64,000 nt of DNA from the human T2T-CHM13v2.0 reference genome, Homo sapiens. Location of the stretch: NCBI RefSeq assembly GCF_009914755.1, contig NC_060927.1; one strand, written 5' to 3'. The notes under the pieces are model-generated. The model had not been told where the DNA came from and did not search any database. It saw nothing but the letters and a program-made list of their open reading frames with translations. Position 1 is the first letter of the stretch, and each line of letters opens with the position of its first letter. The translations under genes were made by a program, and so were the position numbers. Shown here in pieces: positions 13,801 to 19,738 of this stretch.

Positions 13801-16800
13801 ACAAACTGTCTCTCAGACCACAGTGCAATCAAACTAGAACTCAGGATTAAGAAACTCACTCAAAACCGCTCAACAACGTGGAAACTGAACAACCTGCTCC
13901 TGAATGACTACTGGGTACATAACGAAATGAAGGCAGAAATAAATATGTTCTTTGAAACCAACGAGAACAAAGACACAACATACCAGAATCTCTGGGACAC
14001 ATTTAAAGCAGTGTGTAGAGGGAAATTTAAGCACTAAATGCCCACAAGAGAAAGCAGGAAAGATCTAAAATGGACACCCTAACATCACAATTAAAAGAAC
14101 TAGAGAAGCAAGAGCAAACACATTCAAAAGCTAGCAGAAGGCAAGAAATAACTAAGATCAGAGAAGAACTGAAGGAGATAGGGACACAAAAAAACCTTCA
14201 AAAAATCAATGAATCCAGGAGATGGTTTTTTGAAAAGATCAACAAAATTGATAGATTGCTAGCAAGACTAATAAAGAAAAGAGAGAAGAATCAAATAGAC
14301 GCAATAAAAAATGATAAAGGGGATATCACCACCGATCCCACAGAGATACAAACTACCATCAGAGAATACTACAAACACCTCTACGCAAATAAACTAGAAA
14401 ATCTAGAAGAAATGGATAAGTTCCTGGACATGCACACCCTCCCAAGACTAAACCAGGAAGAAGTTGAATCCCTGAACAGACCAATAACAGGCTCTGAAAT
14501 TGAGGCAATAATAGCCTACCAACCAAAAAAAGTCCAGGACCAGACAGATTCACAGCCAAATTCTACCAGAGGTACAAGGAGGAGCTGGTACCATTCTTTC
14601 TGAAAGTATTCCAATCAATAGAAAAAGAGGGAATCCTCCCTAACTCTTTTTATGAGGCCAGCATCATCCTGATACCAAAGCCTGGCAGAGACACAACAAA
14701 AAAAGAGAATTTTAGACCAATATCCCTGATGAACATCGATGCAAAAATCCTCAATAAAATACTGGCAAACCGAATCCAGCAGCACATCAAAAAGTTTATC
14801 CACCACGATCAAGTGGGCTTCATCTCTGGGATGCAAGGCTGGTTGAACATATGCAAATCCATAAACGTAATCCAGCATATAAACAGAACCAAATACAAAA
14901 ACCACATTGATTATCTCAATAGATGCAGAAAAGGGGTTTGACAAAATTCAACAGCCCTTTATCCTAAAAACTCTCAATAAATCATGTATTGATGAGACGT
15001 GTCTCAAAATAATAAGAGTTATTTATGACAAACCCACAGCCAATATCACACTGAATGGGCAAAAACTGGAAGCATTCCCTTTGAAAACTGGTGCAAAACA
15101 GGGATGCCCTCTCTCACTACTCCTATTTCATATAGTATTGGAAGTTCTGGCCAGGGCAATCAGGCAGGAGAAAGAAATAAAGGGTATTCAGTTAGGAAAA
15201 GAGGAAGTCAAATTGTCCCTGTTTGCAGATGACATGATTGTATATTTAGAAAACCCCATCATCTCAGCCCAAAATCTTCTTAAGCTGATAAGCAACTTCA
15301 GCAAAGTCTCAGGATACAAAATCAATGTACAAAAATCACAGGCATTCTTATATACCAATAACAGACAAACAGAGAGCCAAATCATGAGTGAACTCCCATT
15401 CACAATTGCTTCAAAGAGAATAAAATAACTAGGAATCCAACTTACAAGGGATGTGAAGGACCTCTTCAAAGAGAACTACAAACCACTGCTCAACAAAAGA
15501 GGTCAACAATTGGAAGAACATTCCAGGCTCATGGAGAGGAAGAATCAATATCATGAAAATGGCCATACTGCCCAAGGTAATTTATAGATTCAATGCCATC
15601 CCCATCAAGCTACCAATGACTTTCTTCACAGAATTGGAAAAAACTACTTTAAAGTTCATATGGAACCAAAAAAAAGCTGCATTGCCAAGACAATCCTAAG
15701 CCAAAAGAACAAAGCGGGAGGCATCAAGCTACTTGACTTCAAACTATACTACAAGGCTACAGTAACCAAAACAGCATGGTACTGGGACCAAAACAGAGAT
15801 ATAGACCAATGGAACAGAACAGAGCCCTCAGAAATAATACCATACATTTACAACCATCTGATCTTTGACAAACCTGACAAAAACAAGAAATGGGGAAAGG
15901 ATTCCCTATTTAATAAATGGTGCTGGGAAAACTGGCTAGCCATATGTAGAAAGCTGAAACTGGATCCCTTCCTTACACCTTATACAAAAATTAACTCAAG
16001 ATGGATTAAAGACTTAAATGTTAGACCTAACACCATAAAAACCCTAGAAGAAAACCTAGGCAATACCATTCAGGACATAGGCATGGACTTCATGTCTAAA
16101 ACACCAAAAGCAATGGCAACAAAAGCCAAAATTGACAAATGGGATCTAATTAAACTAAAGAGCTTCTGCACAGCAAAAGAAACTACCATCAGAGTGAACA
16201 GGCAACCTACAGGATGGGAGAAAATTTTTGCAATCTACTCATCTGACAAAGGGCTAATATTGAGAATCTACAAAGAACTCAAACAAATTTACAAGAAAAA
16301 AACAACCCCATCAACAAGTGGGCGAACGATATGAACAGACACTTCTCAAAAGAAGACATTTATGCAGCCAAAAGACACAGAAAAAAATGCTCATCATCAC
16401 TGGCCATCAGAGAAATGCAAATCAAAACCACAATGAGATACCACCTCACACCAGTTAGAATGGTGATTATTAAAAAGTCAGGAAATAACAGGTGCTGGAG
16501 AGGTTGTGGAGAAATAGGAACACTTTTAAATTGTTGGTGGGACTGTAAACTTGTTAAACCATTGTAGAAGACAGTGTGGCAATTCCTCAAGTATCTAGAA
16601 CTTAAAATACCATTTGATCCAGCCATCCCATTACTGGGTATATACCCAAAGGATTATAAATCATGTTGCTGTAAAGGCACATGCGCATGTATGTTTATTG
16701 TGGCACTATTCACAATAGCAAAGACTTGGAACCAACCCAAATGTCCATCAATGATAGACTAGATTAAGAAAATGTGGCACATATACACCATGGAATACTA

Positions 16801-17985
16801 TGCAACCATAAAAAAAGATGAGTTCATGTCCTTTGTAGGGACATGGATGAAGCTGGAAACCATCATTCTCAGCAAACTATCGCAAGAACAAAAAACCAAA
16901 CAGCGCATGTTCTCACTCATAGGTGGGAATTGAACAATGAGAACACTTGGACACAGGCAGGGGAACATCACACTCTGGGGCCTGTTGTGGGGTGGGTGGA
17001 GGGGGGAGAGAAAGCATTAGGAGATATACCTAATGTAAATGACGAGTTAATGGGTGCAGCACACCAACATGGCTCATGCATACATATGTAAAAAACCTGC
17101 ACACTGTGCACACGTATCCTAGAACTTAAATAATAATAAAAAAAGAAAAAATGTTCTGCACCGTTAAACACCAAGGAAATGAAAATAAAACCACAATGAG
17201 ATATCACCTCATGCTTCCTAGAATGGCTACTATCAAAAAGACAAAAGTGTTGACAAGAATGTGGAGAAAATGGTACACTTCTACACTATTGGTGGGAATC
17301 TAAATTAGTATAGCTGTTATGAAAACCAGTATGGAAGTTCCTCAAAAAATTAAAAATAAAACTACCATATGATCCAGTAATTTTACTACTGGGTATACAT
17401 ATCCAAAGAAAATGAAATCAGTATGTTGAAAAGATACCTACACTCCCATGTTCACTGCTGCATTATTCACAATAGCCAAGATATGGAATCAATCTAAATG
17501 TCCATCAGTAGATGAATGGATAAAGGAAATGTGGTATATGAACACAACAGAGTACTATTCAGCCTGTATTAAAAAAAAAAGAAACCCTGACATTTCTAAC
17601 AACATGGATGAAACTGGAGGATATGATGTTAAGCGAAATAAGCAAGGCATAGAAAGACAAATACTACATGATCCCACTCACATGTAGAATCTAAAAAAGA
17701 CAAACTCACAGAAGCAGAGAGTAGAACGGGTTGAAGGGGGAGTTGGAGGGATGAGCTGGAGAGATGTTGGTCAAGGGACACAAAAATTTCAGTTACATAG
17801 GAGTGATAAGTTAAAAAGAAACACTGTATAACAGTGTATTGTATAGTTAAAAATTGCTAAGAGATTTTTTAAGTGTTCTCACCACAAAAACGTTAAGTAC
17901 GTGAGGTAATGCATTTATTAGTCTGATTGACCCATTCTACAATGTATACACATATGAAAACATAATGTACAGCATATATACAATT
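10830..17985 (+). mobile_element. Older L1 (L1MA-like) 3' portion, split by the full-length L1PA (pieces ~10830-11104 and 17145-17985)
   Basis: ORF2 C-terminal and L1MA-type 3'UTR similarity continues directly across the TSD. Confidence 0.75.
11105..17144 (+). mobile_element. Full-length ~6 kb L1PA (approx. PA4-PA5), antisense to DCBLD2; ORF1 12052-13068 and ORF2 from 13132, both disabled
   Basis: 5'UTR with YY1 site CAAGATGGCC, ORF1 (MGKKQ...), ORF2 (MTGSNSHITILTLNVNGLN), 3'UTR G-rich tract and A tail; perfect 14-bp TSD GAAAAAATGTTCTG at 11091-11104 and 17145-17158. Confidence 0.96.
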
Positions 17986-17988
17986 TTC

Positions 17989-19738
17989 TTTTTTTATATA
18001 TATATTTTGTATTATACTTTAAGTTCTAGGGTACATGTGCACAACGTGCAGGTGACATATGTATACATGTGACACGCTGGTGTGCTGCACCCATTAACTC
18101 GTCATTTACATTAGGTATATCTCCTAATGCTATCCCTCCTCCCTCCCCCCACCCCATGACAGGCACCGGTGTGTGATGTTCCCCTTCCTGTGTCCAACTG
18201 TTCTCATTGTTCAATTCCCACCTATGAGTGAGAACATGCGGTGTTCGGTTTTTTGTCCTTGTGATAGTTTGCTAAGAATGATGGTTTCCAGCTTCATCCA
18301 TGTCCTTACAAAGGACATGAACTCATCATTTTTTATGGCTGCATAGTATTCCATGGTGTATATGTGCCACATTTTCTTAATCCAGTCTATCATTGATGGA
18401 CATCTGGGTTGGTTCCAAGTCTTTGCTATTGTGAATAGTGCCGCAATAAACAGACGTGTGCATGTGTCTTTATAGCAGCATGATTTATAATCCTTTGGGT
18501 ATATACCCAGTAATGGGATGGCTGGGTCAAATGGTATTTCTAGTTCTAGATCCCTGAGGAATCGCCACACTGTCTTCCACAATGGTTGAACTAGTTTACA
18601 CTCCCACCAACAGTGTAAAAGTGTTCCTATTTCTCCACAACCTCTCCAGCACCTGTTATTTCCTGACTTTTTAATGATCACCATTCTAACTGGTGTGAGA
18701 TGGTATCTCATTGTGGTTTTGATTTGCATTTCTCTGATGGCCAGTGATGATGAGCATTTTTTCATGTGTCTTTTGGCTGCATAAATGTCTTCTTTTGAGA
18801 AGTGTCTGTTCATATCATTTGCCCACTTGTTGATGGGGTTGTTTTTTTCTTGTAAATTTGTTTGAGTTCTTTGTAGATTCTCAATATTAGCCCTTTGTCT
18901 GATGAGTAGATTGCAAAAATTTTCTCCCATTCTGTAGGTTGCCTGTTCACTCTGATGGTAGTTTCTTTTGCTGTGCAGAAGCTCTTTAGTTTAATTAGAT
19001 CCCATTTGTCAATTTTGGCTTTTGTTGCCATTGCTTTTGGTGTTTCAGACATGAAGTCCTTGCCCATGCCTATGTCCTGAATGGTACTGCCTAGGTTTTC
19101 TTCTAGGGTTTTTATGGTTTTAGGTCTAACATTTAAGTCTTTAATCCATCTTGAATTAGTTTTTGCATAAGGTGTAAGGAAGGGATCCAGTTTCAGCTTT
19201 TTACATATGGCTAGCCAGTTTTCCCAGAACCATTTATTAAATAGGGAATCCTTTCCCCATTTCTTGTTTTTGTCAGGTTTGTCAAAGATCAGATGGTTGT
19301 AGATGTGTGGTATTATTTCTGAGGGCTCTGTTCTGTTCCATTGGTCTATATCTCTGTTTTGGTCCCAGTACCATGCTGTTTTGGTTACTGTAGCCTTGTA
19401 GTATAGTTTGAAGTCAGGTAGCCTGATGCCTCCCGCTTTGTTCTTTTGGCTTAGGATTGACTTGGCAATGCCAGCTCTTTTTTGGTTCCATATGAACTTT
19501 AAAGTAGTTTTTTCCAATTCTGTGAAGAAAGTCATTGGTAGCTTGATGGGGATGGCATTGAATCTATAAATTACCTTGGGCAGTATAGCCATTTTCACGA
19601 TATTGATTCTTCCTATCCATGAGCATGGAATGTTCTTCCATTTGTGTCCTCTTTTATTTCATTGAGCAGTGGTTTGTAGTTCTCCTTGAAGAGGTCCTTC
19701 ACAGCCCTTGTAAGTTGGATTCCTAGGTATTTTATAAA
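17989..19738 (-). mobile_element. 5'-truncated L1PA (ORF2 C-terminus plus 3'UTR), inverted relative to the full-length L1
   Basis: ORFs 18810-19598 and 18211-18930 are L1 ORF2; degenerate TSD ATAT(A/G)TACAA(T/C)TTTC at 17974-17988 and 19739-19753. Confidence 0.94.

What the first reader, a model, noticed from the sequence alone, without database searches (positions are those of the whole stretch)
15420..19738. Inverted L1 pair about 0.85 kb apart shares private mutations: gene conversion and a potential 1.7-kb hairpin
Seen: the 3' 1.7 kb of the full-length L1 (+) and the truncated L1 (-) form an inverted repeat, and each has its own TSD. They share variants absent from the recalled L1PA consensus and, where they overlap, from other L1s in this window: AAAGCGGGAGG (15716/19434), TGGGACCAA giving WYWDQN rather than WYWYQN (15786/19364), AATATTGAGAATC (16261/18882), a 4-nt shortening plus CATCAACAAG (16300/18835), and GGAAATAACAGG...AGGTTGTGG (16486-16504/18640-18658). 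They differ elsewhere, e.g. a 6-nt deletion near 16086 only in the + copy. Inference: patchy intrachromosomal gene conversion between the arms, or descent from the same source element. Such a pair could mediate recurrent inversion of the spacer and form long dsRNA in DCBLD2 pre-mRNA (ADAR substrate, splicing effects).
Basis: partly seen in the sequence, partly recalled or inferred. Interest (0 to 1): 0.7.

Follow-up and report, generated by a model that had tools for sequence, protein, structure and literature searches.

The report
Neighbouring LINE-1 copies swap mutations
Two old LINE-1 copies facing each other in a DCBLD2 intron share rare mutations with each other and with four more copies up to 380 kb away, likely because DNA repair copied short patches between nearby repeats; if so, LINE-1 copies would record how far repair searches for a template.

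Summary
The inverted pair is real: a full-length L1 (11105-17144, +) and a 1.75-kb truncated L1 (17989-19738, -), each with its own target-site duplication, 844 bp apart. Overall identity (95.0%) is ordinary, but a ~0.84-kb tract differs at 20 of 837 sites versus 60 of 824 outside and holds five rare shared alleles; no other copy carries two of the four searched genome-wide. This fits one old gene conversion, probably truncated copy into full-length copy. The larger result lies outside the window: four unrelated L1 insertions 70-378 kb away share rare alleles with the pair in a mosaic (6 of 41 genome-wide carriers of one allele; 3 of 6 of a deletion). Elsewhere in the genome, 19 of 25 hit pairs within 200 kb carry the same allele (5.8 expected). 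So conversion looks regional, not hairpin-specific. Distance-dependent ectopic conversion is known; I found no L1-specific report at this range. No ape, population or editing data could be tested.

The parts
11105..17144 (+). Arm A: full-length, dead L1 (L1PA4/5-like label recalled, not tested against Dfam); longest open stretch 248 codons
11091..11104 (+). 5' copy of the 14-bp target-site duplication of A
17145..17158 (+). 3' copy of the 14-bp target-site duplication of A (exact)
17989..19738 (-). Arm B: 5'-truncated L1, 1.75 kb, same lineage as A at most subfamily-type columns
17974..17988 (.). Inner copy of B's target-site duplication (13 of 15 match)
19739..19753 (.). Outer copy of B's target-site duplication
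15692..16528 (+). Homogenised tract in A: 20 mismatches in 837 bases; shared rare alleles at 15716, 15786, 16261-16262, 16486, 16504. 15786G is also in four L1 copies outside the window (L061-L064, 70-378 kb away)
18616..19459 (-). Matching tract in B
17145..17988 (+). Spacer: 3' part of an older L1 (about 70% identity to A), same orientation as its left piece at 10796-10948, so not inverted
16079..16096 (+). 6-nt deletion junction in A; same junction in L061 (70 kb away), a 5-nt form in L062 (176 kb away); absent from B
14633..14658 (+). Allele 14647T in A, upstream of the inverted repeat, shared with L062 and L063 (176 and 197 kb away)

Best explanation
The two arms are separate L1 insertions that share a 0.84-kb homogenised tract, likely made by non-allelic gene conversion, and they belong to a set of six L1 copies within 380 kb that likely exchanged further short patches the same way. 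Shown: separate TSDs and flanks, the tract, the rare shared alleles, their non-tree-like spread, and a genome-wide excess of allele sharing within 200 kb. Inferred: a germline break in one L1 was repaired from a nearby homeologous L1 on the same chromosome; B overwrote A in the long tract (A carries 3.3-4.1% rare changes outside the tract, 2.2% inside; B 1.4-2.3% throughout); this happened before the human-chimpanzee split; the distant exchanges used short tracts (under about 100 bp on at least one side) and came in several steps. Inferred and untested: the range is set by chromatin contact (loop or TAD), not by a hairpin.
For: Tract: 20 of 837 vs 60 of 824 mismatches; 35.6 expected inside from background rates, p 2.5e-4 before window choice; in a scan over windows 2 of 1485 background pairs and 0 of 110 arm-background pairs reach the A-B score. 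No other locus carries two of the four A-B alleles searched. Regional: 6 of 41 carriers of 15786G lie in 378 kb (allele frequency 41 of 13,153; chance 4e-9 even with 20 neighbours); 3 of 6 deletion hits; 3 of 73 for 14647T, found only after the neighbours were fetched; 2 of 29 for 15431T. Flanks of the six are unrelated. One clade rejected, p-AU 0.002; L062/L063 differ from the others at about ten subfamily-type columns; 13 of 36 allele pairs are incompatible with a tree. Genome-wide with the cluster and C24 dropped (252 of 284 hits kept): 19 of 25 pairs within 3-200 kb share an allele, 5.8 expected, p 1e-5; 12 remain after dropping 7 possible duplications, 1.8 expected, p 1e-4; 6 of those 12 checked, 6 of 6 have unrelated 3' flanks, one pair shares two more rare alleles within 45 bp.
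Against: Whole-arm identity is ordinary. Tract edges were chosen after seeing the data. A and B are of one lineage at most subfamily columns, and five alleles falling in under half the arm is not by itself significant. With 15786 and the A-B pair removed, regional pair sharing is 10 vs 2.6 expected for alleles absent from background but only 10 vs 5.9 when one background carrier is allowed, and pairs are not independent. 16543G is probably an older-subfamily state (also in the old copy at 34739). L062's deletion is 5 nt, not 6. 5 of 6 genome-wide pairs share only the one allele. The decay is not clean: 2 vs 3.6 at 0.4-1 Mb but 18 vs 4.5 at 1-2 Mb, unchecked for duplications. One element on C9 carries both 14647T and 15431T like L062/L063. 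The number of regional L1 copies lacking the alleles was not counted; the two older copies in the window that cover 15786 lack it. One genome only.
Confidence: 0.8

Rival explanations
1. Both arms (and the neighbours) descend from one source L1 that carried the alleles and inserted locally.
For: A and B agree at most non-CpG subfamily columns; A's best scored genome match is B; one distant element carries 14647T with 15431T.
Against: Similarity is confined to a tract; the 3' part shows no excess (8.1% mismatch). No sibling with two A-B alleles. Six copies are not one clade and alleles are tree-incompatible. L1 insertion is not local (established knowledge, recalled).
Confidence: 0.06
2. Conversion is specific to the inverted geometry: the arms pair as a hairpin or cruciform in single-stranded DNA, or through repeated inversion of the spacer; distant sharing is coincidence.
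For: The longest tract is between the two nearest, inverted copies; L062/L063 (20 kb, inverted) is the second most similar regional pair. Fold-back pairing may well have made the A-B tract.
Against: Sharing reaches 70-378 kb in both orientations and includes 14647, outside the inverted repeat; of 19 close genome-wide pairs 6 are opposite-strand; spacer keeps its ancestral orientation.
Confidence: 0.08
3. Independent recurrent mutation plus uneven L1 density.
For: Single-base alleles arise dozens of times genome-wide; most close pairs share one site only.
Against: Cross-allele control shares the same density and gives 5.8 of 25; deletion and double substitution have only 6 hits each.
Confidence: 0.03
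4. Assembly or polishing artefact that mixed reads between nearby L1 copies.
For: Only one assembly was examined.
Against: Copies differ by 5-8%, with differences within 15-50 bp of the shared alleles; the distant copies lie 70 kb or more apart.
Confidence: 0.03

Closest known systems
Non-allelic gene conversion between neighbouring Alu elements (Aleshin and Zhi 2010, seen only as described in PMC6598467 and PMC8230782 passages; the paper itself was not held)
   Same: Neighbouring copies share non-diagnostic mutations, falling with distance.
   Different: Described range about 10 kb and for Alu; here L1, with sharing at 70-378 kb and a genome-wide excess to about 200 kb.
Genome-wide distance-dependent ectopic gene conversion (bioRxiv 10.64898/2026.08.26.747289; abstract, passages, sections 7 and 14 read; supplements closed)
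   Same: Short templates, effect falls with donor-acceptor distance, steepest between 100 kb and 10 Mb, also outside segmental duplications.
   Different: Works on segregating variants; distance analysis uses one-to-one pairs only; its main text has no match for 'transpos', 'Alu', 'retro' or 'L1PA'. Here: old, many-to-many exchange among L1 copies.
Cohesin-guided homology search within a TAD (PMC12701822, passages)
   Same: Repair from donors 441 and 563 kb away in cis works; search is bounded by TAD borders. Matches the range seen.
   Different: Somatic reporter with a near-identical donor; germline 93-95% identical L1 donors and TAD limits were not tested here.
Inversions mediated by inverted L1 pairs (PMC2603318 and PMC3961182, passages)
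   Same: Inverted L1 pair around a short spacer.
   Different: Spacer is in ancestral orientation here; arms are 95% identical and 1.7 kb; no inversion record found.

Membership tests
Non-allelic gene conversion between TE copies | Copies are independent insertions, not a duplication | tested here: met
   Separate TSDs for A and B; unrelated flanks for all six
Non-allelic gene conversion between TE copies | Shared non-diagnostic alleles beyond chance | tested here: met
Non-allelic gene conversion between TE copies | Similarity limited to a tract; sites incompatible with one tree | tested here: met
Non-allelic gene conversion between TE copies | Orthologue of the acceptor in an outgroup shows the unconverted state | not testable with these tools
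   No ape genomes held
Non-allelic gene conversion between TE copies | Rate falls with distance | tested here: inconclusive
   Strong excess to 200 kb, weak at 200-400 kb, none at 0.4-1 Mb, but excess again at 1-2 Mb
L1-mediated recurrent inversion | Spacer inverted or polymorphic in orientation | tested here: not met
   Ancestral orientation in this assembly; no hit in 3 supplement files of PMC12350158, which may not hold the full call set or may use other coordinates; polymorphism itself untested
Intronic inverted-repeat dsRNA edited by ADAR | Both arms on one transcript and able to pair | tested here: met
   Both lie in the DCBLD2 intron between exons at 1748-1885 and 33854-34081 (hub annotation); predicted duplex about -1000 kcal/mol per 600 nt
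Intronic inverted-repeat dsRNA edited by ADAR | A-to-I editing or a splicing effect observed | not testable with these tools
   No RNA data
Segmental duplication | Homology continues into flanks | tested here: not met
L1PA4/L1PA5 subfamily | Diagnostic match to Dfam consensus | not testable with these tools
   No repeat library; label recalled. Only relative lineage was tested

The most novel reading that the evidence does not exclude
Young primate L1 copies form local exchange networks: mutations hop stepwise between copies in the same chromatin domain (here six copies over 380 kb), so rare-allele sharing among some 15,000 L1PA copies is a fossil map of germline homology-search range and ancient domain borders, and it blurs L1 subfamily trees and ages.
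Probability: 0.35. Interest if true: 0.75.

Novelty: new variant of a known kind. Interest (0 to 1): 0.5.

Why it matters
The pair alone is one more case of conversion between neighbouring repeats. The regional pattern matters more: it extends retrotransposon conversion from the roughly 10 kb described for Alu to hundreds of kb for L1, means dead L1 copies do not age independently, and gives a test that needs only existing assemblies: do shared alleles stop at TAD borders, as the cohesin scanning model predicts? The same contacts would mark L1 pairs at risk of deletions or inversions around DCBLD2.

Tried and rejected
Whole-arm identity as evidence: not above background. 4-nt shortening and 16315C as private alleles: common. 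Recent or continuing long conversion: longest identical run 114 bp, null mean 138, P 0.73. A-B as sister taxa over the whole arm: not resolved in the tree. Segmental duplication: flanks unrelated. Spacer inversion: not present. GC-biased spread: shared changes go both ways by inspection; not formally tested. Literature: ten full-text searches, of which sought L1 or TE conversion or this locus and homology search; no listing showed L1-L1 conversion at 100-400 kb or this pair; subscription papers are largely not held, and Aleshin and Zhi 2010 and Porubsky 2022 could not be read. PMC5640379 gave only a reference title; PMC3280953 abstract only (deletion bias in conversion). Not done: count of regional copies lacking the alleles; denominators for five of seven alleles; genome-wide check of 16486T, 16553A and 15816G; flank check of 6 of the 12 retained pairs and of the 1-2 Mb pairs.
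Full report
Anatomy. A full-length L1 (A, 11105-17144, +) with an exact 14-bp TSD sits inside an older L1; a 5'-truncated L1 (B, 17989-19738, -) with a 13-of-15 TSD sits 844 bp further on. 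The older host L1 pieces left of A and in the spacer align to L1 in the same orientation and order, so the spacer is not inverted in this assembly. A is dead: longest open stretch 248 codons. The arms align over 1725 bases at 95.2%.

Background set. Two genome searches scored 40 of 15,966 and 40 of 13,559 candidates and gave 60 loci; three were the arms themselves and two were duplicates, leaving 55 copies. They are biased towards likeness to A or B. Against them A-B identity is ordinary (95.0% vs 94.6 +- 0.6%; 398 of 1485 pairs as high), though higher than A to any background copy (maximum 94.1%).

The tract. Between 15692 and 16528 the arms differ at 20 of 837 sites, outside at 60 of 824. 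Background site rates predict 35.6 inside (p 2.5e-4 before allowing for window choice). A scan over 800-column windows, which allows for that choice, is matched by 2 of 1485 background pairs and 0 of 110 arm-background pairs. Four shared alleles have 33, 41, 6 and 96 exact matches genome-wide and only A and B carry any two of them. A has 4.0% and 4.1% rare changes beside the tract, 3.3% upstream and 2.2% inside; B has 1.4%, 2.3% and 1.8%, so B likely overwrote A. The longest identical run (114 bp) is within chance. At 2.4% divergence, about twice the human-chimpanzee value (recalled), the event likely predates that split.

The regional network (outside the window). The list for 15786G held four more hits on the same chromosome: G000:C3:101641367 (-, L061, 70 kb from A), 101747891 (+, L062, 176 kb), 101768357 (-, L063, 197 kb) and 101949700 (+, L064, 378 kb), so 6 of 41 carriers among 13,153 sites; chance is 4e-9 even if 20 copies lay there. 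I fetched them. They are 92-95% identical to the arms and to each other with unrelated 3' flanks. The 6-nt deletion of A recurs with the same junction in L061 and as a 5-nt form in L062; a pattern covering both has 6 hits genome-wide, 3 of them here. Upstream of the inverted repeat, 14647T is shared by A, L062 and L063 (0 of 37 background; 73 genome-wide). L062 and L063 share 15431T (29 genome-wide) and 15816G; L061, L062 and L064 share 16553A (0 of 55; not searched genome-wide). L062/L063 are a different lineage at about ten subfamily-type columns, one only 53 bp from 15786, so those tracts were short; 13 of 36 allele pairs cannot fit one tree; one clade is rejected (p-AU 0.002, tree otherwise weak). 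Against: without site 15786 and the A-B pair, pair sharing is 10 vs 2.6 expected at the strict threshold and 10 vs 5.9 at the looser one. All four neighbours lie outside DCBLD2 (hub annotation), so pre-mRNA pairing cannot link them.

Genome-wide control. From seven allele lists (284 hits) I dropped the 20 cluster hits and 12 on C24. Among the 252 left, 25 pairs lie 3-200 kb apart and 19 carry the same allele (label shuffles give 5.8; p 1e-5). Dropping 7 possible duplications leaves 12 against 1.8 expected (p 1e-4). Six of the 12 were checked: all six have unrelated 3' flanks; one shares two further rare alleles within 45 bp, five share only the one. By distance, same-allele pairs versus expected: 7 vs 0.3 (3-25 kb), 4 vs 0 (25-100 kb), 8 vs 1.5 (100-200 kb), 4 vs 1.2 (200-400 kb), 2 vs 3.6 (0.4-1 Mb), 18 vs 4.5 (1-2 Mb, unchecked for duplications), 22 vs 14.8 (2-5 Mb), 88 vs 78 (5-20 Mb).

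Mechanism. Most likely (0.8): germline breaks in an L1 were repaired from a nearby homeologous L1 in cis, leaving one long tract between the closest pair and several short ones between distant copies. Fold-back pairing may have helped the A-B event but cannot explain the rest. That chromatin domains set the range is inferred from PMC12701822 (passages: repair from donors 441 and 563 kb away, bounded by TADs) and was not tested. The arms would pair in DCBLD2 pre-mRNA (predicted duplex), but the window holds 144 inverted pairs of 40 nt or more and no RNA data were available.

Known and new. Conversion among neighbouring Alus within about 10 kb is described (passages of PMC6598467 and PMC8230782). 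A 2026 preprint shows distance-dependent ectopic conversion across the human genome, without naming transposons in its main text (supplements closed, and its table of peak regions may include this locus). My searches listed no report of L1 networks at this range or of this pair; the library lacks most subscription papers. No inversion entry was found in three supplement files of PMC12350158, which is weak evidence.

Verdict. Observation partly confirmed; conversion supported; hairpin and inversion not needed or not seen. New variant of a known kind, interest 0.5, resting mainly on the regional and genome-wide pattern.

Noticed in passing
window 16529-16701: Arm A has 17 changes of its own in 173 bases starting right at the tract's edge (about 7.6 expected, Poisson 0.002 before allowing for window choice); possibly error-prone repair synthesis. 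Unexplained.
   Followed up: partly
G000:C5:58.64-58.77 Mb (L078, L079, L090, L091): A second apparent network: one L1 shares 16504T with a copy 133 kb away and 15431T with a copy 18 kb away; flanks of the first pair unrelated.
   Followed up: partly
G000:C4:78723749 and 78875078 (L086, L087): Two L1 fragments 151 kb apart share three rare alleles within 45 bp and have unrelated flanks: a clean short tract.
   Followed up: yes
G000:C3:101.75-101.77 Mb (L062, L063): An inverted L1 pair 20 kb apart with its own more similar stretch (14 mismatches vs 25 expected in 400 columns).
   Followed up: partly
G000:C9:104746097-104746906: One element carries both 14647T and 15431T, as L062 and L063 do, and shares 14647T with a copy 128 kb away.
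   Followed up: no
window 15727 / 19423: At a CpG site inside the tract both arms have different rare letters (A and G; 0 and 1 of 55), possibly a shared change later hit again.
   Followed up: no
window 3232-4388, 20971-24389, 34739-35532, 60909-64000: Further, older L1 fragments (69-89% identity to A), some inverted to A or B; the three compared share no convincing rare alleles with the arms.
   Followed up: partly
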